NCBI GenBank assembly: GCA_003599335.1
Contig: QZJN01000014.1
Span: 1,432-65,431 of the forward strand
DNA from: Candidatus Parcubacteria bacterium
Lineage (GTDB): Bacteria; Patescibacteriota; Minisyncoccia; SURF-38
DNA: 64,000 nucleotides
Reading direction: 5' to 3'
The position numbers and the translations under genes were made by a program. Below the pieces are notes generated by a model that saw only the letters and a program-made list of their open reading frames with translations, made no database searches and was not told the DNA's origin. Below, piece by piece: positions 11,415 through 28,484 of the stretch. Numbering within the stretch: the first letter of the stretch is position 1; the number at the start of each line of letters is the position of its first letter.

Positions 11415-11476
11415 ATTTAGTTAGTTAAAATCTATTTATAAGTCAATGCATTAAAGTTGTCAGCGGTAGCCCGTCA

Positions 11477-11512
11477 GCCATTGCCGGTTAATATCTATTA
11501 ACCGGCAATGGC
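11477..11512. repeat. Perfect 36-bp palindrome GCCATTGCCGGTTAATA-TC-TATTAACCGGCAATGGC, followed by TTTTAT
   Basis: Read directly from the sequence. It sits 55 nt upstream of the HTH gene and can also act as a terminator for the upstream operon. Confidence 0.8.
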
Positions 11513-11566
11513 TTTTATGGTAGATTAAAGATACTTTAAGAAGTTAAAAGGTATTAGATTTGTTTT

Positions 11567-11773
11567 ATGAAAAAGCGGTTTATATCTTCTATGGAGTTGG
11601 CAAAGCTTATTGGCATAAGCCATGTCGCGGCATATAAGAAAATTTTGCGAGGCGAAATTAAGGCAGAAAAAGTTGGAAGAAATTTTATAATACCCGTTCG
11701 TGAGTTGCCCTTTAAAGTTTCGGTTAGACGAAACAACAAAATCCAATGGCGCATACTCCAACATCCGCAGTAA
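11567..11773 (+). CDS. Excisionase-family/MerR-like helix-turn-helix DNA-binding protein
   Basis: 68 aa; MELAKLIGISHVAAYKKILRGEIKAEKVGRNFIIPVREL matches the excisionase-family HTH pattern. Confidence 0.6.
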   Translation: MKKRFISSMELAKLIGISHVAAYKKILRGEIKAEKVGRNFIIPVRELPFKVSVRRNNKIQWRILQHPQ

Positions 11774-11827: not shown

Positions 11828-11861
11828 AAATCGCCGGTTAATAACTGTTAACCGGCGATTT
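11828..11861. repeat. Palindrome AAATCGCCGGTTAA-taactg-TTAACCGGCGATTT sharing the GCCGGTTAATA core with 11477-11512
   Basis: Read directly from the sequence, 55 nt downstream of the HTH gene. Confidence 0.75.
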
Positions 11862-11924
11862 AGCTGTCTGCTATTGCTTGCTATATTTATATTTTGCATT
11901 GAAAGTTAGTTTAGTCGTTGACTT

Positions 11925-13274
11925 TTGAGGAAACGCCAATATATACTGCCTTCAAAACACATGCCCGCAAATTGGAAAATATTTGCCGGAGGGGCTATGG
12001 TGATAACTCTATTTTTAATTTTTTCTCACGGCGTTTCCGCTCAAACGCTTGGTTGGGTAAAGGAAAGCACTAACGCAGCTCCCTTTGCCGAATTTCTTCA
12101 CGAGATGGTCTACGATGCTGCCCGTCAAGAGGTTATCTTATTTGGAGGCGTATATAACCCATCTTTTAATTTGTTTCCGTTGCTGGACCATACGGTAGCT
12201 TGGAACGGCACAACCTGGGTTTCAAAAACTCCTTCGGTGAGTCCTCCTCCTCGAATAGAGCACGGGATGGCCTACGATGGCGCCCGTCAAGAAGTTATTT
12301 TATTTGGAGGGGGCACTGCTCCAGGCTTGTTTATAAACCGCACCCCACTCAACGACACTTGGATTTGGGATGGGGCAACATGGCAACAAAAATTCCCAAG
12401 TAATAGCCCTACTCCTCGGAGTAATTTTGGCATGGCTTACGATGCAGAGCGCAATGAAACGATTTTGTTTGGAGGACAAGATCCTGCTCCAACTCTAACA
12501 TGCTGTCTCCAAGATGACACTTGGGCCTGGAACGGAACAGATTGGTTCCAAAAGTCTCCAACCTTAAGTCCGTCCAGGCGTTCTCATCACCAGATGGTCT
12601 ACGACTCTGCCAGAAAACAAATTATTCTGTTTGGCGGCATCGATGCCAGTGGCCAACTTCTCAATGATATTTGGGTTTGGGATGGTACAAATTGGGAATT
12701 GAAATCTTCAACCACAAGCCCTTCGTTAAGGACTAATTTTGCAATGACGTTTGATGAGTCCTTGCAGAAAGTCGTTTTGTACGGTGGGCAAGGAACGGCA
12801 GGAAGTTTAGATGATACATGGGTATGGGACGGTAATGATTGGGCTCAACTTTCTGTCTCAAGCAAGCCGCCACCGCAACGGCTCCACGATATGGTTTATG
12901 ATGCTTCACGCAAGGAAATAGTTATGTACGGAGGAGATGGCGCTCTTCGCGAAACTTGGACACTGCCGACCGGTTCTCAAAAACGCCCGGTCATCCTAAT
13001 CCCGGGGATATTAGGAAGTTGGGAGAAAGACGGCGAACTGGCGCTTGATCCAATTTTGCACACCTACGACAATTTATGGGAGGCTCTAAAGTTAGCCGGT
13101 TATGAAGAAGATAAAGACTTATTTGCTTTTCCTTATAATTGGAGATCTTCGAATAACCTTACAAGTTTATCTCTTAAACAAAAGATTGAGGACGTAAAGA
13201 ATATCTGCCAATGTCTAAAAGTGGACATTGTTGGGCATAGTATGGGCGGATTGCTTGCGCGATCATATATTTAG
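11925..13274 (+). CDS. Kelch-repeat beta-propeller protein fused to the N-terminal half of an alpha/beta-hydrolase (lipase) domain; ends at an in-frame TAG
   Basis: Signal/TM N-terminus, then six repeats of the pattern AYD..R.E.ILFGG...NDTW.WDG..W (Kelch). The lipase core GHSMGGLLARSYI follows and is cut immediately by TAG at 13272-13274. Confidence 0.6.
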   Translation: MRKRQYILPSKHMPANWKIFAGGAMVITLFLIFSHGVSAQTLGWVKESTNAAPFAEFLHEMVYDAARQEVILFGGVYNPSFNLFPLLDHTVAWNGTTWVSKTPSVSPPPRIEHGMAYDGARQEVILFGGGTAPGLFINRTPLNDTWIWDGATWQQKFPSNSPTPRSNFGMAYDAERNETILFGGQDPAPTLTCCLQDDTWAWNGTDWFQKSPTLSPSRRSHHQMVYDSARKQIILFGGIDASGQLLNDIWVWDGTNWELKSSTTSPSLRTNFAMTFDESLQKVVLYGGQGTAGSLDDTWVWDGNDWAQLSVSSKPPPQRLHDMVYDASRKEIVMYGGDGALRETWTLPTGSQKRPVILIPGILGSWEKDGELALDPILHTYDNLWEALKLAGYEEDKDLFAFPYNWRSSNNLTSLSLKQKIEDVKNICQCLKVDIVGHSMGGLLARSYI

Positions 13275-13319
13275 GGCGGAGATTATCAAAGTGACGTTGA
13301 AAAGTTAATTTTTCTTGGG

Positions 13320-14576
13320 GTGCCACACCTTGGTTCGCCAAGAGCTTATTTAGCATGGGAAGCTGGAGAGTTTGGAACCGGTCCATTTAATTTTATTAGG
13401 GAAAATCTACTAACCCTAGAAGCTATAAGTGGTGGTTATGGAAGCCTTTTTAATTATGTTAAAAATTTGCCAATTTTATCAATTCAAGAACTCTTGCCAA
13501 TTTATGACTACCTGCGCGAAGATAGTACTCTTCAACTAAGGCAATATCCAAATAATTATCCACGCAATATCTTCCTTGAAATCTTAAACGAGCAATTATT
13601 AGTTGATAGGCTGGATGGTCTAGATGTAACAAATATTATCGCCGATGCTGGGCAACAAAGCACCATTAAGTCATTTAGGATAGTAAATCAACAATTTTTG
13701 GACGGTAAATGGGAGCATGGTTATCCAGAAAATTATGGCGTGCCATTTACAGATCAAGGTTTAGAGGTTGGCCCAGGAGATAATACGGTTCCAGAAGATA
13801 GTAACTCAAACTTTTCTAATGCAGAAGAAATTATTATACAAAGTGACCACGACGGTATAGTTACCGATGCCCAGAAAGCTATTATTAAGGAACTGACTGG
13901 TGTCGAGCCAACGCAGGAAGTGCGACTCAATTTCTTTCAAAAGTATCTTATGATACGAATTTTTTCACCGGCTGATTTTGTGGTTATAGCCCCAGACGGT
14001 AAAAGGCTTGGTAAGGATTTTGCATCAGGTCAAGTTTTAGAAGAGATATCGAGTGCTTTTTACAGCGGATTTAATACAAACGTTGAGTTTGCGGTTATTC
14101 CAGATCCTATTGATGGGCAATATCAGATTGAGTTGCAGGGAACCGGAGATGGCTCTTATAGATTAGTTACAAGTTATATTGATGAGCAAACTGATATTGA
14201 TAATGAATTTTACGGCGCCATCAGCACAATTCAGGAACTTGAATTTATTTTTGATTATAATTCCCAAAATCAAAATCCCGTAAGCGAGTTAGAAATCATT
14301 TACTCGTTGAATGATTTTAGAGATGATATTGAAAAAGCATATCAGTTGGGATGGATAAGTAAAGAAAGCGTAAGGGGTCAGTTCATTCATCAGGCAGATA
14401 GTTTAGATAAGAAATTGGGAATTATAATTGAGCCTCATGCTCGTGCAAACGTTATTGGTAACTCACTTAATGTCATTAAAAACATCGCTAATGCACATCT
14501 TAAGAGCAGTTCAATAAATCAGCTAGCTTATGATATGATAATAAGTAGCATTGATTACTTACTAAATAATTTATGA
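13320..14576 (+). CDS. Continuation of the lipase domain (IFLGVPHLGSP...) plus a C-terminal domain; same frame as 11925-13274
   Basis: The frame is continuous with the upstream ORF (13275 onward reads GGDYQSDVEKLIFLGVPHLGSP). There is no SD before GTG 13320, so this is probably not an independent gene. Confidence 0.45.
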   Translation: MPHLGSPRAYLAWEAGEFGTGPFNFIRENLLTLEAISGGYGSLFNYVKNLPILSIQELLPIYDYLREDSTLQLRQYPNNYPRNIFLEILNEQLLVDRLDGLDVTNIIADAGQQSTIKSFRIVNQQFLDGKWEHGYPENYGVPFTDQGLEVGPGDNTVPEDSNSNFSNAEEIIIQSDHDGIVTDAQKAIIKELTGVEPTQEVRLNFFQKYLMIRIFSPADFVVIAPDGKRLGKDFASGQVLEEISSAFYSGFNTNVEFAVIPDPIDGQYQIELQGTGDGSYRLVTSYIDEQTDIDNEFYGAISTIQELEFIFDYNSQNQNPVSELEIIYSLNDFRDDIEKAYQLGWISKESVRGQFIHQADSLDKKLGIIIEPHARANVIGNSLNVIKNIANAHLKSSSINQLAYDMIISSIDYLLNNL

Positions 14577-14950
14577 ATTATCTCAAAAACAAATGGATAA
14601 TTTTAACCTTGAGCATTGTTTTATCTTTTATCGCCGCTAAATTTATTGGGCAGATATATTTCAAAACTTTTAATTCAATAACAGGAGGGCTAGGACCTCA
14701 ACCTTCTTGTCCTGAATGTATAACCGGCTTTCTGTTAAGTTATCTTTTTTTTGTTAGTCTGCTTTTAAACTTACTTCTTTTCGGACAAATAAAAAAATTT
14801 TGGATTATTTCGCTACTCCCGATTCTTATAATCTTACTTAATCCACCCTACGAAGAATTGATAGCCGGGATAATCTTAGTAGTTGTGGGTTTTCTATTAG
14901 CGCAGTTGATTTTGTGGGTTAGGCGAATAGTAAAAGGATATAATCACTAA
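14573..14950 (+). CDS. Hypothetical membrane protein (CPEC motif)
   Basis: Hydrophobic 125-aa ORF with an ATGA overlap onto the upstream ORF. Confidence 0.5.
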   Translation: MNYLKNKWIILTLSIVLSFIAAKFIGQIYFKTFNSITGGLGPQPSCPECITGFLLSYLFFVSLLLNLLLFGQIKKFWIISLLPILIILLNPPYEELIAGIILVVVGFLLAQLILWVRRIVKGYNH

Positions 14951-14959
14951 ATTTTAAAT

Positions 14960-16075
14960 ATGAAATATTTTGTTTTAATTATTATTGTTGGGTTTTTTGC
15001 CCCCACGGCAATGGCTCAGGTGAATTATTATTCAACAGATGCGGTGCTTAAAGTTGAAGCCGTGCCTGTTGAATCGGAAACGGTTTCTTACGACAAGATA
15101 AGCGCTGTTGTAGGTAAAGCCTTTGTGCTTGATGGCACGAAAAGCGTTGATGAAGGCGCCGTTAGGAGTTTCCAATGGAGGCAAGTGAGCGGACCTTTTA
15201 AATTTACAACCCAAGATGGCGCAATTGTGTCTTTTACGCCAAATATTGCCGGGACATATGTTTTTGAGTTGGTTGTCACGGATAATACGGGATTAAGCTC
15301 AATTGCGAGAAAAACAACGGTCGTTGTTGCAAGCCCGGAAAGCATATTCCAGCCAAACGAAACAAATATGGATTTTCTCAAAGCTCCAGCCAAACTTATT
15401 GAGGGCGATCCTGACAGGCCTATTATTCAGGGAGCTGTGCCGAATCAAACAAAAGAATCTGGCGAAAAAGGAGGAACAGAAGATATTAATATCGGAGTTG
15501 GCGAATTGCAGGAAGGAGAGGATTTGGATCTTGAATTGAAAAATCCCGTGAGCATAAAAGCCGTTGAGGTGCGCGGATGGGATCCGCAACAAAAACAAGA
15601 TTTTTTGGGGACTGTTAAGGAATTTGCCGAAGTTAAATCCGAGCAAGACCTTGAAAATTTTGCCAAAGGAGCGCTGATTGAAGATGAAAATTTGGATAAT
15701 ATCGCAATAGGAGAAGAGGGTGTGCAGATTGCCTATAAAATGCCAGCCAAGTTTTTGGGAGTTTTTAACGTTTCTATAAAACTTGACGGTGAAGTTGATG
15801 ATGAAGGCCAAGTGAAAATAAAATATCCCTGGTATGGGTTTTTATTCCGCAAGCAAGTGAAGGCTTCCGATGTTCAGGCAGAGGCTGAAAAAGCTGTTTC
15901 TGGTATTAAACAAACAATACAAACCCAAGTGAAATTAGCCGACAGCGAGGGCGACCTTGCAAGCCTTGAGCTTCAGGCAAAAATTCAGCAGCTTGCCCAA
16001 ACTTTTCAAACATTGAGCAACATAATGAAAACAAAACACGACACGGCGATGAATGCAATTAGAAATATCCGTTAA
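14960..16075 (+). CDS. Secreted protein with a PKD/Ig-like domain, an acidic region and a coiled-coil C-terminus
   Basis: Signal peptide (AMAQV). PKD-like motif WRQVSGPFKF...GTYVFELVVTDNTG, followed by an E/D-rich and then a Q-rich coiled-coil tail. Confidence 0.55.
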   Translation: MKYFVLIIIVGFFAPTAMAQVNYYSTDAVLKVEAVPVESETVSYDKISAVVGKAFVLDGTKSVDEGAVRSFQWRQVSGPFKFTTQDGAIVSFTPNIAGTYVFELVVTDNTGLSSIARKTTVVVASPESIFQPNETNMDFLKAPAKLIEGDPDRPIIQGAVPNQTKESGEKGGTEDINIGVGELQEGEDLDLELKNPVSIKAVEVRGWDPQQKQDFLGTVKEFAEVKSEQDLENFAKGALIEDENLDNIAIGEEGVQIAYKMPAKFLGVFNVSIKLDGEVDDEGQVKIKYPWYGFLFRKQVKASDVQAEAEKAVSGIKQTIQTQVKLADSEGDLASLELQAKIQQLAQTFQTLSNIMKTKHDTAMNAIRNIR

Positions 16076-16084
16076 AACCAAAAA

Positions 16085-16120
16085 CAACATTCCAACATTC
16101 TGCAGAATGTTGGAATGTTG
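16085..16120. repeat. Perfect 36-bp palindrome CAACATTCCAACATTCTGCAGAATGTTGGAATGTTG (PstI-site centre)
   Basis: Read directly from the sequence. It lies between the PKD gene stop and the arsR start. Confidence 0.8.
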
Positions 16121-16144
16121 TGGGGAGTGTGATATACAGGAGGT

Positions 16145-16792: not shown

Positions 16793-17485
16793 ATGATTAC
16801 AAAAATCAAAAAATCTAATGACGCGACAGCTTATCTAAAAACTTCTGTTAATAAAATATTAAATTATTTACGGAAGATAGTTAGTAATAAAAAATTTAAT
16901 TATAGAACTTTCGGCACTAGTATAGAAGAACATCTTACCGATATTTTGGTTAAGTTATTTACGGAGGGTGGTTTTATAGAAAATAATAAAGATTACGTTG
17001 TTGCGCTCAATAAAAATTATTTCCCAGATTTTGAATTAAAAACCACGCCTCCACTTGCTATTGAGTTTAAATCTGGTAATAAGAGTCAGTATAGAAAGGA
17101 GAAGTGGGTTGTTGTTAAAAACAGCGAGAACGATATGGGAACATTAAATGAATGGCCACAAAAAATTAAGAAATTTGGCGGGGATAACATTTATTATATT
17201 TTCGTTATTTATAATTTTAATGATCAAACTGAAGAGGTTTTAAATGTTGAAATAGCTCCATTCTACCAATTTATAGGATTGAATAAGGGAAAGGTGCTTA
17301 AATATAGAGAGAAAGATGGCAACTTGAGGCCAAAAGATTTTGAATCTAATTCTCCTATAAAGACCTTAAAACAATTTGAAGATTTATTGAATAAAACTGT
17401 AATTTATAGATCTAAACGAGTAATCAAAAAACACCGTTCGATTATTAAAAAAGTTGCTCAAACTTCTAAAAAAGAGTTGGGCTAA
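16793..17485 (+). CDS. Putative PD-(D/E)xK nuclease (candidate Type II restriction endonuclease)
   Basis: 230 aa. Motif E(EEHLTD)...FPD-x12-EFK fits a PD-(D/E)xK catalytic core. The gene is convergent with, and overlaps by 20 nt, the DNA methyltransferase gene. Confidence 0.45.
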   Translation: MITKIKKSNDATAYLKTSVNKILNYLRKIVSNKKFNYRTFGTSIEEHLTDILVKLFTEGGFIENNKDYVVALNKNYFPDFELKTTPPLAIEFKSGNKSQYRKEKWVVVKNSENDMGTLNEWPQKIKKFGGDNIYYIFVIYNFNDQTEEVLNVEIAPFYQFIGLNKGKVLKYREKDGNLRPKDFESNSPIKTLKQFEDLLNKTVIYRSKRVIKKHRSIIKKVAQTSKKELG

Positions 17486-19028
17486 CTAATTTTTTATTTT
17501 GTTTTTTATTGTAGTTGAATTTAGGGTTGTCTATAGGATAAATGCCCTCATCTTCGGATATAGTTAAGTTCCTTAAATACTTTGAGGCAGTTTCGGGAGT
17601 ATTGCCGTTATATTTATAACCATTACTTGAACGATAATTTACTTTATCAAGTTTATTTGCGACGATTTTTTTATATTTTGGATCTATATCAATACCAATA
17701 TAATTTCGTCCGAGGCGTTTTGCGGCAAGCGCAGTTGTCCCTGCTCCAATGAATGGATCTAACACTACATCCCTTTCATCTGTAGTCATGAGTATCAATC
17801 GTTCCAATAAAGGTTCTGGGAGTTGGCATGGATGAGCGTCTCTCCGAGCGTTATGCCGAATGCGGTGTATATCTGCCCACACATCGCTTAAAAGTGTTCC
17901 ATGAGGGTGTATTTGGTTTTTCTTCCCCCCATAATCTTTAATCATTTCTCCGCAGATCCTGCATTTTTTGTGAGGTGATCTTAATTCATGAAATTTAAAT
18001 CCTTTCTGAGTTTTTGTATAAAATAAGATGCCATAATGTGCGGGTAATAGCGTTTTTCCAAGAGGCGTGCTCATTGAATCCCAAGCAATCCAGTGTTTAA
18101 ACACAGCAATTTTGTTAAGATGGTTAGCATAGTAGGTCAACCATTTTGGTATATTATGAATAAAGATTGAGCCTGTTGGTTTAGTTATTCTAACCATTTC
18201 GGTTAGCCACAACTCACACCATTTTATATAATCATCAGTTGTTTTTTTGTCTTTATAATTTCCATACTTTTTATTTAAGTTGAATGGCGGGTCTGCAAAT
18301 GTCATATCCACCGAGTTATCAGGGATCTTTTTCATTTCACTAATAGAATCTCCGCACAGGATTTCGTTCAGAGGAAGTTTTTTGTATTGTTTAATATCGT
18401 GTTTAATTTCTGGCAAAATGATAGGAGTTGTAAATTCATCTCGGATAACATCAATGACTATCCCTTGGATAGAAATATCCTTATCTTTTTTTATGATGAT
18501 TGGCTCCATGCTTTTGTTTGCCGGTTGTAATCTGATATGGCCGCGCTCTTTATAGAATTTCTTTAGGGTTGCTTCCTGATTGTCTATGAGGGCGACAACT
18601 TTTTGGCCGTTTTCGGCTGTGGCTTGATGTTTTACTAAAATAATATCTCCATCATTAATATTTTCATCAACCATGCTATTGCCAATCACTTTTAAAGCGT
18701 AAATCTCTCCGGAAGAGGGGAGTTTGTTTTTTGGCACGGCAATAGTTTCTTTTTCTTGAACCGCCTCTATGGGTTCGCCAGCCGCGATAGTGCCAAGGAG
18801 TGGAATTTTAACCATCGACTCCGTTTCAGTAATATCTATTGCCCTGTGTTGATTCCAGCCTCGTTTTAAATATCCCTTTGCTTGTAGCTTTGATATATGT
18901 TCATGAATATTTGAGGGGGAGGATAAACCGAAGTGGTCGGCTATCTCTTCAAGAGAGGGAGCGTACTGGTGCTTTTTTATGTATTTTTGGACGTAGTCCA
19001 AAACTTGTTTCTGACGTTTGGTAAGCAT
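17466..19028 (-). CDS. LexA-like repressor (HTH + S24 autopeptidase) fused to a beta-class DNA methyltransferase (N6A/N4C)
   Basis: The N-terminus MLTKRQKQVLDYV...LEEIADHFGLSSPSNIHEHISKLQAKGYL matches the LexA DNA-binding domain. The AAGEP Ala-Gly cleavage site, GNSM Ser and ATLKKF Lys define an intact S24 domain. After a linker come the MTase motifs IV (DMTFADPPFN) and I (VVLDPFIGAGTTALAA) in beta-class order. The track start at 19049 is GTG; ATG 19028 matches the LexA N-terminus. Confidence 0.65.
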   Translation of the reverse strand: MLTKRQKQVLDYVQKYIKKHQYAPSLEEIADHFGLSSPSNIHEHISKLQAKGYLKRGWNQHRAIDITETESMVKIPLLGTIAAGEPIEAVQEKETIAVPKNKLPSSGEIYALKVIGNSMVDENINDGDIILVKHQATAENGQKVVALIDNQEATLKKFYKERGHIRLQPANKSMEPIIIKKDKDISIQGIVIDVIRDEFTTPIILPEIKHDIKQYKKLPLNEILCGDSISEMKKIPDNSVDMTFADPPFNLNKKYGNYKDKKTTDDYIKWCELWLTEMVRITKPTGSIFIHNIPKWLTYYANHLNKIAVFKHWIAWDSMSTPLGKTLLPAHYGILFYTKTQKGFKFHELRSPHKKCRICGEMIKDYGGKKNQIHPHGTLLSDVWADIHRIRHNARRDAHPCQLPEPLLERLILMTTDERDVVLDPFIGAGTTALAAKRLGRNYIGIDIDPKYKKIVANKLDKVNYRSSNGYKYNGNTPETASKYLRNLTISEDEGIYPIDNPKFNYNKKQNKKLVSPTLF

Positions 19029-19037
19029 GCTTTTATT

Positions 19038-19071
19038 ATAACTTAACACCCGAAAGAAAACCGAAAGTTAT
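19038..19071. promoter_or_regulatory. Candidate operator: inverted repeat ATAACTT-N20-AAGTTAT enclosing direct repeats CCGAAAG x2, overlapping the -10 of the lexA-MTase gene
   Basis: Read from the sequence immediately upstream of ATG 19028 on the minus strand. A TATAAT box (reverse complement) lies ~6 nt before the ATG. Confidence 0.35.
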
Positions 19072-25489: not shown

Positions 25490-27256
25490 GTGTCTGATCA
25501 GGTACAAGATATTAAAAACAGGCTTGATATTGTCGAAATTATAAAGGGATATCTGCGTCTCGAAAAATCAGGCATTAATTTTAAGGGGCTTTGTCCTTTT
25601 CATAACGAAAAGACTCCTTCATTTTTCGTTTCTCCTTCAAGGCAGATGTGGCATTGTTTTGGTTGTTCCAGGGGAGGAGACATGTTTGCTTTTATTCAGG
25701 AAATTGAGCACGTTGAATTTGCCGATGCTTTAAAGATGCTTGCCGATAAGGCCGGTGTCGAACTGAAGCATGAAGACAAGAAATTAAAAAGCCAACGTCA
25801 GAAGCTTTATGATGCCCTGGAATTAAGTGCGAAGTTTTTTGAGAGGCAGCTTGAAGGTAATAAATCGGTTCTCGAGTATCTTAAAAATAGAGGCCTGAAA
25901 GAAGAAACTTTATCTGAATTTCGGGTCGGTTTTTCGCCTTCGCAATGGGATAGTCTTTTTAAATTTCTGAGAACAAAAGGATTTTCCGACAGAGAAATTG
26001 CTCAAGCCGGCCTGACTGTAAGTAATGCAAATGATTCAACTAGATATTACGATAGGTTTCGCGGAAGAATAATGTTTCCGATTTTCGATATTTCCGGCAG
26101 AGTTATCGGTTTTGGCGGGAGAGTTTTTGAACAAGGAAATCCGGGAAAAGAACAGGGGCCAAAATACGTTAATACGCCGGCAACGCTGGTATATGACAAA
26201 GGGAGGATGCTTTATGGCTTGGATAAAACAAAGATGGAAATAAGAGAGAAAAACGCGGCTGTTTTAGTTGAGGGTTATATGGATTTACTGATGTCTTGGC
26301 AAAGCGGAGTTAAAAACGTTGTCGCTTCTTCGGGAACTGCTTTAACACCAATGCAACTTGATATCTTAAAGAGATTTTCAAACGTTATAAACATTGCTTT
26401 TGATGCCGATGCGGCGGGTCAGAGCGCAACCAAGCGTAGCATTGATCTGGCTATGTTGAAGGGTTTTGAAGTAAAAGTTATAGAGGTTGGCGAGGGGGTT
26501 AAGGATCCTGCGGAGTTGGCGCAAAAATCTCAAGAAGCCTGGCAAAAGGCTGTTTTGAAAGCCAGACCAATTATGGAATTTTATTTTGAGGCCACCTTGA
26601 AGAAATCTAACCCGAATGTAGTTGAGAATAAAAAAATTATAGCAGGGGAACTTTTACCGGAGATAAACAAACTTCAAAATTCTATTGAAAAAGCTCATTG
26701 GATTGCCGAATTGGCCTCGCATCTTAAAATAAAAGAATCTGTTCTGGAAGAAGAAATGAAAAGATCTCCCATTGAGACAATCAGCGAGGAAGCTGCGCAG
26801 GCTTTTGGCGAGCCGCTTAAAAGAACAAGGGGAGAGCTTCTCTTGGAAAGGCTTTTGTATCTTTTGGCTTCAAATCCACAGGCCAAAGAGTCCGTTGATT
26901 CAATTGAACTTGGGGGGCTTGCCAAAACAGAGCTTGGGGGTTTATTTTCAAAGATCAGAGAAAACAACGACTTTTCGGAAGATGATAAAGCAAGGCTTGA
27001 TTATATAGTTTTTAAAAATGAGGTTTTTGATAAGCCGCAGGAGCCCGAAAGAGAGATTAAATTTTGTCTTGATGGTCTTAACACCATTGTTTTAAAGGAA
27101 GAACTTAACAGGCTTGGTTGGGAGATTAAAGAGGCGGAAAAAAAACAAGAAGTAAAAGAGGTTGCCAGACTGGTGGGGGAATTTAAACAAAAATCAAAAA
27201 AATTGGGAGAAATTTATGGCTCAAACCAAATTAAAGGCCAAGAAAAAACAAGCTAA
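25490..27256 (+). CDS. dnaG: DNA primase DnaG
   Basis: CHC2 zinc finger ([11 protein letters not shown]...[10 protein letters not shown]), TOPRIM region (EGYMDLL), and a GTG start. Confidence 0.88.
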
Positions 27257-28484
27257 AAAAGTTTCGGCAAAAAAGCACGGCAAGAAGGCCTCTTCAAAGA
27301 GGCTTAGTTTAGCTGAACGAATAAGGGCTTATCGCAAAGGGAGAAAAGCGCCAAAGACCAAGGTTATAAAAACAAAGCCCAAAAAAGAAGAAAAACTCTC
27401 TCCCAAGGAACTTCGCAAAAACTTTGAAAAGGGAATGAAGGAGCTTTTGGAGAGAGGTCGCCAGAGGGGATTTGTTACCGATGTTGAGATACTTAAATTT
27501 TTGCCAAATGTTGAGCAAGATATAACTTTTCTTGAAGAATTTTATTCAAGGCTTGAAGAGGCAAACATAAAAGTTGTCCAGTCCAAAGGGCTTATTCAGG
27601 AAACGGAAAAGCAAGAGGCTCAAAGGGCCAGGGTTTTGGAGGATTCGGAAAGTATGGTGCCCGATTCCGTGCAGATGTATTTGCGTGAAATTGGAAAAGT
27701 TGCGCTGCTTAAAGCTCAAGAAGAAAAAGACTTGGCTAAAAGAATTGCCCAGGGAGATGAAGAAGCAAGACAAAAACTAACCCAGGCCAATTTGAGGCTT
27801 GTTGTTTCTATTGCCAAGCAATACGTTGGGAGGAGCCCTCATTTGAGCCTTTTGGATTTGATTCAAGAGGGAAATATCGGTTTGTTTAAAGCGGTTGAAA
27901 AATTTGATTACAAAAAGGGATTTAAGTTTTCAACTTATGCCACTTGGTGGATACGCCAAGCCATCACCCGCGCTTTGGCCGACCAAGCGCGCACCATACG
28001 CATTCCGGTGCATATGGTTGAAACCATAAGCAAATATTCCCAAGCCAAAAGAAAATTAGCACAAGATCTGGGCCGGGAACCATTGCCGGAAGAGATTGCT
28101 TCGGAAATGGGAGTTGAGGTTGAAAAGATACGACATATTCAAAAGATTTCTCAAGAGACGGTTTCTTTGGAAGCGCCGGTTGGCGAGGGAGATGAAGATT
28201 CTACCCTGGGAGAATTTGTTGAAGACGAAAAAGAACTTTTGCCATCTCAAATTGCAGCCAGAAGATTATTGGCCGATCAGATTAAGGGAGTGTTGATTGA
28301 TTTAACGCCAAGAGAACAAAAGATATTAAGAATGAGATTTGGATTGGATGATGGCATTACTCATACACTTGAGGAAGTCGGTAAGGAATTTGGCGTTACC
28401 CGTGAGAGAATCCGTCAGATTGAAGCCAAGGCGCTTGAAAAAATACGTCAGCACAGGCATTTGAGAAAATTGGAAGGATATTAG
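27216..28484 (+). CDS. rpoD: RNA polymerase sigma factor RpoD (sigma-70)
   Basis: Region 2 ([37 protein letters not shown]) and region 4 HTH. RBS GGGAGA precedes ATG 27216, which overlaps the dnaG 3' end (the track start at 27162 is in-frame upstream). Confidence 0.88.

What the first reader, a model, noticed from the sequence alone, without database searches (positions are those of the whole stretch)
11925..14576. 883-codon Kelch-propeller/lipase fusion gene interrupted by a single in-frame TAG
ORFs 11925-13274 and 13320-14576 are in the same frame with only one stop (TAG 13272-13274) between them. The stop falls inside an alpha/beta-hydrolase core: ...GHSMGGLLARSYI*GGDYQSDVEKLIFLGVPHLGSP, where GHSMGG is the nucleophile elbow and LGxPHxGS is the typical downstream lipase motif. 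No SD precedes the second part. This is either a recent nonsense pseudogene, a sequencing error, or programmed readthrough. TAG is a genuine stop elsewhere (for example uvrA), so code reassignment is unlikely. The intact protein would be a secreted six-blade Kelch propeller fused to a lipase and a C-terminal domain, an unusual surface enzyme.
Basis: seen in the sequence. Interest (0 to 1): 0.55.

Follow-up and report, generated by a model that had tools for sequence, protein, structure and literature searches.

The report
Lipase gene broken by one stop codon
A gene for a secreted Kelch-propeller lipase in an uncultured Parcubacteria (CPR) genome is cut in two by a single TAG where all relatives have Glu or Gln, which is most likely an ordinary, very recent nonsense mutation and less likely an assembly error.

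Summary
Window 11925/11961-14576 (+) is one reading frame with a single internal stop, TAG 13272-13274. GenBank annotates the two halves as separate hypothetical proteins (C4553_03545 and C4553_03550, Candidatus Parcubacteria MAG).

The joined protein has these parts:
- a signal peptide
- six Kelch repeats
- an LCAT/PGAP1/Lipase_2-type alpha/beta hydrolase
- a beta-sandwich
- a helical bundle

It belongs to a large Patescibacteria family (more than 500 hits). All 119 homologous proteins examined, and every related DNA locus that reaches the site, are open there, with Glu or Gln (GAA/GAG/CAA/CAG). TAG is therefore one base change from the ancestral codon.

The stop separates the nucleophile Ser427 from Asp607 and His630, each invariant in 119/119 homologs, so neither fragment can be an enzyme.

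Evidence against recoding:
- TAG terminates 10 other ORFs in the window.
- The window holds no suppressor tRNA.
- No RNA structure surrounds the stop.
- No relative shares the stop.

The downstream half shows no decay: 51 of 52 highly conserved positions are kept.

Best reading: a very recent nonsense allele or pseudogene (about 0.65). Consensus error is the main rival (about 0.17). No close relative or reads were available to separate the two. This is an ordinary finding.

Side observation: a small four-TM gene follows the lipase gene in all 9 loci checked.

The parts
11918..11947 (+). Promoter-like site (TTGACT-18-TATACT) just upstream of ATG 11961. It overlaps the TTG at 11925, which argues that ATG 11961 is the real start.
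   Evidence: Consensus scan, 10 of 12 matches. This is a consensus match only, not evidence of function.
11961..13271 (+). Upstream fragment (GenBank C4553_03545, RJQ13430.1, 437 aa). It holds a signal-peptide-like N-terminus (about 11961-12041), six Kelch repeats (about 12093-12959) and the first ~100 residues of the lipase-type alpha/beta hydrolase (12972-13271), including the nucleophile elbow GHSMGG.
   Evidence: Pfam Kelch families at E 4.5e-33 and weaker, LCAT/Lipase_2/PGAP1 N-terminal halves. Six YD..R.E.ILFGG repeats. Exact match to RJQ13430.1. Colinear 43% identity to intact P0030. The signal peptide is inferred from the sequence (K-rich n-region, hydrophobic core, VSA|QT); no predictor was run.
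13239..13241 (+). Codon for Ser427, the catalytic nucleophile (GHSMGG).
   Evidence: Ser in 119/119 homologs. Coordinates checked.
13272..13274 (+). In-frame TAG (codon 438), followed by G.
   Evidence: The homologous column is Glu 68, Gln 49, Ser 1, Asn 1 of 119 proteins. Codons in every related DNA locus that reaches the site are GAA, GAG, CAA or CAG.
13275..14576 (+). In-frame continuation. It holds the rest of the alpha/beta hydrolase (to about 13940) with catalytic Asp607 (13779-13781) and His630 (13848-13850), a beta-sandwich (about 13929-14306), a helical bundle (about 14307-14573) and the TGA stop at 14574-14576.
   Evidence: 47% colinear identity to P0030. Asp and His invariant in 119/119. 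AF2 secondary structure and confidence. Foldseek hits to lipases. 51 of 52 positions conserved at 90% or more are retained.
13320..14576 (+). ORF as annotated in GenBank (C4553_03550, RJQ13431.1, 418 aa, GTG start). This is an annotation artefact of the split. The 15 codons between the TAG and this GTG are conserved family sequence.
   Evidence: P0001 is 100% identical. Residues GGDYQSDVEKLIFLG align with homologs.
14573..14950 (+). Conserved partner gene: a 125-aa protein with four predicted TM segments. Its ATG overlaps the lipase TGA (ATGA).
   Evidence: Translation. An equivalent 118-135-aa multi-TM gene lies 3-13 nt after the lipase gene in all 9 loci examined. Those proteins are 24-45% identical to the window protein.

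Best explanation
This is one gene, inactivated by a single-base nonsense substitution (GAG or CAG to TAG) at codon 438. The allele is real in the sampled Parcubacteria population and very young.

The intact ancestor encoded a Sec-exported protein with:
- a six-bladed Kelch propeller, probably a binding module
- a Ser-Asp-His lipase/acyltransferase-type alpha/beta hydrolase related to LCAT, LPLA2, PGAP1 and Bacillus LipA
- a beta-sandwich
- a C-terminal helical bundle

It was co-expressed with a small four-TM membrane protein.

With the TAG, ribosomes terminate after the helix that follows the nucleophile elbow. The exported product carries the propeller and about 100 residues of hydrolase with Ser427 but lacks Asp607 and His630. 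Any product started at GTG 13320 lacks both the signal peptide and the nucleophile. No active enzyme is made.

Shown here: the stop, its position in the fold, the split triad, intact relatives, and normal use of TAG as a terminator. Inferred: that the base call is correct, export, and enzymatic function. By analogy with secreted phospholipases proposed for CPR bacteria, the function may be harvesting host or environmental lipids.
For: - Single stop in an otherwise open 871/883-codon frame.
- 119 homologous proteins have Glu, Gln, Ser or Asn at that column, and every related DNA locus that reaches the site is open there with GAA/GAG/CAA/CAG. TAG is therefore one substitution away.
- Ser427 lies upstream and Asp607/His630 downstream, each invariant in 119/119.
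- The AF2 model (pLDDT 83, pTM 0.80) places the stop between the post-nucleophile helix (residues 91-99 of the model) and the next core strand (109-115).
- Foldseek hits are lipases. Pfam LCAT/PGAP1/Lipase_2 hits span the stop once it is replaced.
- TAG ends 10 other ORFs, including uvrA in the same TAG-G context, with only 2-57 codons to the next stop.
- The window holds no suppressor tRNA.
- No other disrupted gene was found in the window, so the assembly looks clean.
- Base rate: pseudogenes are about 5-10% of genes in Parcubacteria MAGs (PMC11188291). One in about 60 genes is unremarkable.
- No bacterial UAG reassignment is known (PMC8629427).
Against: - The downstream 433 codons show no sign of relaxed constraint. 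51 of 52 positions conserved at 90% or more are kept, which is better than the median homolog, and there is no second lesion. This fits a very recent mutation, but it fits a base-call or consensus error or tolerated readthrough equally well.
- Only one assembly carries this locus.
- No relative above 61% identity exists in any collection searched. The TAG therefore has no independent confirmation, and dN/dS cannot be computed.
Confidence: 0.65

Rival explanations
1. Sequencing, assembly or consensus artefact. The organism's gene is intact (GAG or CAG). The TAG in the MAG contig would be a wrong base call, or a minority strain variant that the assembler picked up.
For: - Exactly one base separates TAG from the family's Glu/Gln codons.
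- The downstream half is perfectly preserved.
- The locus exists in a single metagenome-derived assembly, with no independent copy.
Against: - No other broken gene lies in the 64 kb, so the contig is not error-prone.
- Substitution errors in short-read consensus are rare, and only a few percent of random substitutions create stops (general knowledge, not measured here).
- Real pseudogenes are common in Parcubacteria MAGs (PMC11188291).
Confidence: 0.17
2. Tolerated or programmed readthrough. The TAG would be decoded at some frequency as Gln or Glu, by a suppressor tRNA encoded elsewhere in the genome or supplied by a TAG-recoded phage, or by near-cognate misreading. This would give low or conditional amounts of full-length lipase.
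For: - Homologs have Gln or Glu at this column, and Gln is what known TAG suppression inserts (my own knowledge).
- The downstream part is undecayed.
- The partner gene is translationally coupled to the end of the long frame.
Against: - The stop is not conserved in any of the 119 proteins or in any related DNA locus that reaches the site.
- The surrounding RNA is not structured (z = -0.02), and there is no Rfam match.
- The window holds no suppressor tRNA.
- TAG terminates 10 other ORFs, including uvrA in the identical TAG-G context.
- All known bacterial stop reassignments involve UGA (PMC8629427).
Confidence: 0.07
3. A functional split gene. The two fragments would be made separately (the second from GTG 13320, possibly by termination-reinitiation 45 nt downstream) and either reassemble or have acquired separate roles, for example a stand-alone secreted Kelch binding protein.
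For: - GenBank annotates two proteins.
- A GTG lies 45 nt after the stop.
- SD motifs are not needed in this genome.
Against: - The break is inside the hydrolase core and separates Ser from Asp and His.
- Only the first fragment has a signal peptide, so the two would end up in different compartments (sequence).
- No relative is split.
- The 15 codons between TAG and GTG are conserved family sequence that would be lost.
Confidence: 0.04

Closest known systems
Patescibacteria/CPR family of multidomain LCAT/PGAP1-like alpha/beta hydrolases (uncharacterised; for example P0030, 913 aa, Kelch + lipase; P0024 and P0055 from 'Candidatus Buchananbacteria'; P0082 from Magasanikbacteria)
   Same: - 40-61% identity over the lipase, beta-sandwich and helical region.
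- Same invariant Ser, Asp and His.
- Same downstream four-TM partner gene.
- P0030 also shares the signal peptide and the Kelch propeller.
   Different: The window copy is the only one with an internal stop. The N-terminal module differs among members: Kelch here and in P0030, elsewhere CarboxypepD_reg, beta-helix, Ig-like, LamG or PD40-type Pfam hits.
LCAT / lysosomal phospholipase A2 (Pfam PF02450; PDB 4xx1, 4x90)
   Same: Pfam LCAT hit of 56.4 bits against a cut-off of 21 on the repaired protein. Profile and Foldseek hits to LCAT and LPLA2. Ser-Asp-His alpha/beta hydrolase acting on lipids.
   Different: Similarity is confined to the region around the nucleophile (profile positions 291-390). 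TM-scores are low (0.32-0.34 on the query). There is no evidence for the cap and membrane-binding domains of LCAT/LPLA2. Acyltransferase activity is untested.
Bacillus subtilis lipase A / Lipase_2 (PF01674; PDB 1i6w) and other bacterial lipases with accessory domains (A. fulgidus lipase 2zyr, B. licheniformis BlEst2 6wpx, Legionella PlaB 6zti)
   Same: - A-H-S-M-G-G-type elbow.
- The 23-residue Asp-to-His spacing matches LipA Asp133/His156 (my own knowledge of LipA).
- These are the best Foldseek hits (E 1e-8 to 1e-5).
- The A. fulgidus lipase, BlEst2 and PlaB chains aligned with the model over about 480-560 columns, i.e. beyond the hydrolase core. From my own knowledge, A. fulgidus lipase and PlaB carry a C-terminal accessory domain.
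   Different: Only 10-25% identity and modest TM-scores. The Kelch propeller, the helical bundle and the four-TM partner are absent from those enzymes.
T6SS lipase effector Tle4 (PDB 4r1d, Tle4-Tli4 complex)
   Same: Best sequence-profile hit among solved structures (E 9e-8, motifs PVIxIPGIxG and HSMGGLVARA). A lipase encoded next to a small partner gene.
   Different: The match covers only two short motifs. No T6SS context was seen in the window. The partner here is a four-TM membrane protein, not a Tli-type immunity protein. Filing it as a toxin/immunity pair is unsupported.
Ordinary bacterial nonsense pseudogenes (as counted by Pseudofinder in Parcubacteria MAGs, PMC11188291)
   Same: A single premature stop relative to full-length homologs in a genome group where 5-10% of genes are called pseudogenes.
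   Different: It shows no secondary decay at all, so it is at the very youngest end of the class, or it is not real.

Membership tests
Lipase-type alpha/beta hydrolase (Pfam LCAT PF02450 / PGAP1 PF07819 / Lipase_2 PF01674) | Profile match above the curated cut-off | tested here: met
   On the repaired protein: LCAT 56.4 bits (cut-off 21), PGAP1 39.3 (24.3), Lipase_2 34.2 (20.3). The N fragment alone also passes. The C fragment alone has no hit.
Lipase-type alpha/beta hydrolase (Pfam LCAT PF02450 / PGAP1 PF07819 / Lipase_2 PF01674) | G-x-S-x-G nucleophile elbow plus a conserved acid and His completing a triad | tested here: met
   GHSMGG with Ser427. Asp607 (GDNTV) and His630 (SDHDG) are each invariant in 119/119 homologs. 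Assigning Asp and His as catalytic rests on invariance and on spacing like LipA, not on a structural superposition.
Lipase-type alpha/beta hydrolase (Pfam LCAT PF02450 / PGAP1 PF07819 / Lipase_2 PF01674) | Alpha/beta-hydrolase fold | tested here: met
   AF2 model with pLDDT 83 and pTM 0.80. Foldseek probability 1.00 to many solved lipases, with modest TM-scores. Model residues 229-275, which include the Asp loop, have low confidence.
Lipase-type alpha/beta hydrolase (Pfam LCAT PF02450 / PGAP1 PF07819 / Lipase_2 PF01674) | Esterase, lipase or acyltransferase activity | not testable with these tools
   Needs expression of a repaired (TAG to GAG) construct or of an intact homolog, followed by a lipid substrate assay.
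Kelch beta-propeller | Six or so tandem Kelch repeats matching Kelch profiles | tested here: met
   PF24681 at E 4.5e-33, Kelch_4 at 1.1e-25, Kelch_3 at 1.3e-17. Six YD..R.E.ILFGG motifs spaced about 50 residues apart.
Nonsense pseudogene | Premature stop relative to full-length homologs, inside an essential domain | tested here: met
Nonsense pseudogene | The stop codon is a genuine terminator in this organism (no recoding) | tested here: met
   Within the window, 10 other ORFs end in TAG with short extensions and no suppressor tRNA is present. The rest of the genome was not available.
Nonsense pseudogene | The base call is supported by reads or by independent assemblies | not testable with these tools
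   Only one contig carries the locus. An exact DNA pattern found nothing in the metagenome contigs.
Nonsense pseudogene | Signs of relaxed selection downstream of the lesion | tested here: not met
   51 of 52 highly conserved positions are retained and there is no further stop or frameshift. This is expected only if the lesion is very recent, and it is why the artefact and readthrough rivals stay open.
Programmed stop-codon readthrough / recoding (suppressor tRNA, pyrrolysine) | The stop is conserved at the same site in relatives | tested here: not met
   None of 119 proteins and no related DNA locus that reaches the site has a stop there.
Programmed stop-codon readthrough / recoding (suppressor tRNA, pyrrolysine) | Stimulatory RNA element or dedicated tRNA nearby | tested here: not met
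   Fold z-score -0.02. No Rfam family. The only tRNA in the window is tRNA-Ser(GGA). A genome-wide tRNA set was not available.

The most novel reading that the evidence does not exclude
The TAG is real and is read through conditionally. In this reading a suppressor tRNA(CUA), encoded elsewhere in the genome or delivered by a TAG-recoded phage, inserts Gln at a position where half the family has Gln. Production of the secreted lipase, and through ATGA coupling its four-TM partner, would then be switched on only in that state. This would be a first example of UAG suppression gating a host gene in a CPR bacterium.
Probability: 0.04. Interest if true: 0.75.

Novelty: new member of a known kind. 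Interest (0 to 1): 0.17.

Why it matters
The TAG itself matters little. It is a routine annotation correction: two GenBank 'hypothetical proteins' (RJQ13430.1 and RJQ13431.1) are halves of one disrupted gene. It is also one more example of gene loss, or of a consensus error, in a CPR MAG.

The family has more potential value than the lesion. The secreted lipase, beta-sandwich and helical-bundle core, with swappable N-terminal binding modules and an invariably adjacent four-TM partner, is very widespread in Patescibacteria. These organisms cannot make their own membrane lipids, and their membranes are reported to be rich in lysolipids (PMC7242380). The family is therefore a reasonable, untested candidate for lipid acquisition from hosts or necromass. 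Losing one copy in this genome would then be a small data point on how dispensable or redundant that function is.

Tried and rejected
- **Code reassignment of TAG.** Rejected. TAG ends 10 other ORFs with short extensions, and no bacterial UAG reassignment is known.
- **Pyrrolysine or suppressor tRNA in the window.** None found.
- **Readthrough-stimulating RNA.** No excess structure and no Rfam family.
- **An error-prone contig.** I looked for other same-frame splits and for frameshift-like overlapping ORFs. The only candidate pair (25490-27256 and 27162-28484) is the normal dnaG and rpoD.
- **Independent copies of the same population.** These could have confirmed or refuted the TAG. Exact-product look-ups of both fragments found nothing. 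The cluster look-up shows one contig only. An exact DNA pattern with NNN at the stop found nothing in JGI metagenome contigs. Scans of GTDB genomes and metagenomes gave no relative above 61% identity. dN/dS and allele comparison were therefore impossible.
- **'No SD before ORF2' as evidence.** Rejected. SD-like motifs precede only 6 of 45 genes.
- **Toxin-immunity (Tle/Tli-like) reading of the lipase and small partner.** Considered because Tle4 is the best profile hit among solved structures. The match is only two short motifs and no T6SS context was seen, so it was not adopted.
- **AFDB50 fold search.** The library was unavailable.
- **NCBIfam.** It gave nothing above cut-off.
Full report
**1. 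Observation**

Translating window 11925-14576 (+) gives 449 codons, a single stop, 433 codons and a terminal stop. The ORF table lists 11925-13274 and 13320-14576 in the same frame. The DNA reads ...CGA TCA TAT ATT TAG GGC GGA GAT... with TAG at 13272-13274.

A six-frame scan for long open segments separated by one stop finds this as the only TAG case that joins two homologous halves. The terminal stop is TGA 14574-14576, overlapping the ATG of the next gene. The likely start is ATG 11961, which lies just after a promoter-like TTGACT-18-TATACT. This is the start used in the public record, and it gives an 871-aa joined protein.

The 433-codon open extension cannot be chance: the other ten TAG-terminated ORFs in the window reach the next in-frame stop after 2-57 codons.

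**2. Source and public annotation**

The two halves are exact matches to RJQ13430.1 (C4553_03545, 437 aa) and RJQ13431.1 (C4553_03550, 418 aa, GTG start). Both are annotated 'hypothetical protein' in a Candidatus Parcubacteria bacterium MAG, on a 66,033-bp contig. Each sits in a cluster seen on one contig only among about 15 billion proteins.

The window is ordinary chromosome. It carries uvrC, uvrA, groEL, LemA, an M48 peptidase, tRNA-Ser, dnaG, rpoD and a DEAD-box helicase.

**3. What the gene encodes**

- **N fragment.** It has a signal-peptide-like N-terminus (read from the sequence), six Kelch repeats (Pfam E down to 4.5e-33; six YD..R.E.ILFGG motifs) and the first ~100 residues of an LCAT/PGAP1/Lipase_2-type alpha/beta hydrolase ending just after GHSMGG.
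- **C fragment.** On its own it has no Pfam hit. When the stop is replaced by Glu, the LCAT, PGAP1 and Lipase_2 matches extend across the junction and gain score.
- **Structure model.** An AlphaFold2 model of the lipase-to-C-terminus region was built on 27 sequences (pLDDT 83, pTM 0.80). It shows an alpha/beta-hydrolase core, a beta-sandwich and a C-terminal helical bundle.
- **Position of the stop.** It falls immediately after the helix that follows the nucleophile strand and before the next core strand.
- **Structural neighbours.** Foldseek against the PDB returns lipases: BlEst2, Legionella PlaB, A. fulgidus lipase, LPLA2, LCAT, Tle4 and Bacillus LipA. A sequence profile search of solved structures gives Tle4 (4r1d), LipA-type lipases and LCAT, but only around the nucleophile region.
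- **Catalytic triad.** Ser427, Asp607 and His630 are invariant in 119/119 homologs. Ser lies upstream of the TAG, and Asp and His lie downstream. Neither fragment can be an active enzyme. Only the first has an export signal.

**4. Relatives**

A search of 5.8 billion proteins gave 524 hits, and the top 120 all have E < 1e-118. Nearly all named ones are from Patescibacteria (Parcubacteria, Buchananbacteria, Magasanikbacteria, Kerfeldbacteria, Falkowbacteria). They are typically 700-930 aa and cover the query across the stop.

At the stop column the 119 homologs have Glu (68), Gln (49), Ser (1) or Asn (1). In every related DNA locus from Logan, GTDB genomes and JGI metagenomes that reaches the site, the frame is open there, with GAA, GAG, CAA or CAG. 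TAG is thus one substitution from GAG or CAG.

P0030 (913 aa) has the same signal peptide, Kelch propeller, lipase and C-terminal architecture. It is colinear with both halves at similar identity (43% and 47%).

No relative closer than 61% identity exists in any collection, and no second copy of this population was found. The TAG could therefore not be cross-checked, and dN/dS could not be computed.

**5. Is TAG read as stop here?**

Among 60 long non-overlapping ORFs, 38 end in TAA, 11 in TGA and 11 in TAG, counting the lipase TAG. uvrA ends in TAG-G, the same context. Other results:

- The only tRNA in the window is tRNA-Ser(GGA).
- The RNA around the stop folds no better than shuffles (z = -0.02).
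- No Rfam family matches.
- According to the Codetta survey, all known bacterial stop reassignments involve UGA (PMC8629427).

Nothing positive supports recoding or programmed readthrough.

**6. Age of the lesion**

The downstream half retains 51 of 52 positions that are at least 90% conserved in the family. The median homolog misses 2. There is no second stop or frameshift. The lesion is either very recent, not real, or tolerated.

**7. Weighing the explanations**

No other gene in the 64 kb is disrupted, so the contig is not visibly error-prone. Pseudogenes make up about 5-10% of genes in Parcubacteria MAGs (PMC11188291), so one in about 60 genes is expected.

Substitution errors in short-read consensus that also create a stop should be much rarer. 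This is general knowledge and was not measured here.

| Explanation | Weight |
|---|---|
| Genuine, very recent nonsense allele (fixed or segregating) | about 0.65 |
| Consensus or base-call artefact | about 0.17 |
| Tolerated or conditional readthrough | about 0.07 |
| Functional split | about 0.04 |
| Unassigned | remainder |

**8. How the intact system probably works (inference)**

The family keeps a constant core of lipase, beta-sandwich and helical bundle. It varies the N-terminal module: Kelch here, and in other members Pfam hits to carboxypeptidase-regulatory-like, beta-helix, Ig-like, LamG and PD40-type domains. N-terminal extensions range from 15 to 378 residues.

In all 9 loci examined, a 118-135-aa protein with three or four predicted TM segments starts 3-13 nt after the lipase gene, or overlaps it as ATGA in the window. 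These small proteins are 24-45% identical to the window protein.

The likely picture is an exported lipid-active hydrolase, targeted by its N-terminal module and working with, or anchored by, the small membrane partner.

CPR bacteria lack lipid biosynthesis, have lysolipid-rich membranes and are thought to take lipids from other cells. Phospholipase A action has been proposed as one route (PMC7242380). A secreted phospholipase has been suggested for this role in Vampirococcus (PMC8080830). That makes lipid harvesting the most plausible role, but no activity has been shown.

**9. Verdict**

The finding is real but ordinary. It is a single-nucleotide nonsense disruption, or less likely an assembly error, of one member of a common, uncharacterised Patescibacteria lipase family. 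GenBank currently annotates it as two hypothetical proteins. The 'unusual surface enzyme' remark is overstated, because the architecture is a normal variant of a modular family.

Noticed in passing
window 14573-14950 (+); L001 10747-11151, L003 4926-5288, L004 3257-3622, L005 7597-7953, L007 7829-8194, L008 8003-8410, L009 4123-4497, L010 7747-8112: A small (118-135 aa) protein with three or four predicted TM segments is encoded immediately after the lipase gene in all 9 loci examined (gap 3-13 nt, or an ATGA overlap in the window). The proteins are 24-45% identical to the window protein, and several share a CPEC..GF motif. This is a conserved two-gene cassette of unknown role (anchor, acceptor or immunity?).
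   Followed up: partly
homologs P0002-P0120: The family keeps a constant core of lipase, beta-sandwich and helical bundle. It swaps the N-terminal module (Kelch, CarboxypepD_reg, right-handed beta-helix, Ig-like, LamG, PD40-type Pfam hits), and N-terminal extensions range from 15 to 378 aa. This modularity resembles targeting domains.
   Followed up: partly
window 17466-19049 (-): A 527-aa ORF fuses a LexA DNA-binding domain and the S24 autopeptidase to an N6/N4 DNA methyltransferase domain (Pfam E 2.9e-19, 5.6e-31, 3.6e-51). A LexA-methylase fusion is an unusual architecture.
   Followed up: no
window 11476-11513 and 11832-11862: Two long, similar hairpins share the core CCGGTTAATA[T/A]CT[A/G]TTAACCGG. 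They flank a 68-aa ORF (11567-11773, +) with a weak excisionase-type HTH_17 hit just upstream of the lipase gene. This may be a small repeated element or paired terminators.
   Followed up: no
whole window (45 likely gene starts): Only 6 of 45 likely genes have an SD-like motif within 20 nt upstream, and leaders are A/T-rich. Presence or absence of an SD is not a usable criterion for start sites in this genome.
   Followed up: yes
window 14960-16075 (+) and 16084-16121: A 371-aa protein with a signal-peptide-like N-terminus and a PKD domain (PF22352, E 3.2e-11) follows the four-TM gene. It ends at a 17-bp-stem hairpin that scores as a terminator on the minus strand. It may belong to the same surface-protein operon.
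   Followed up: no
L012 4257-4424 (contig CAIQIV010000598.1) and L006/L007/L010: A few family members sit on MAG contigs labelled Chloroflexi or 'uncultured Gammaproteobacteria'. Given the otherwise Patescibacteria-only distribution, these may be mis-binned or mislabelled contigs rather than transfers.
   Followed up: no
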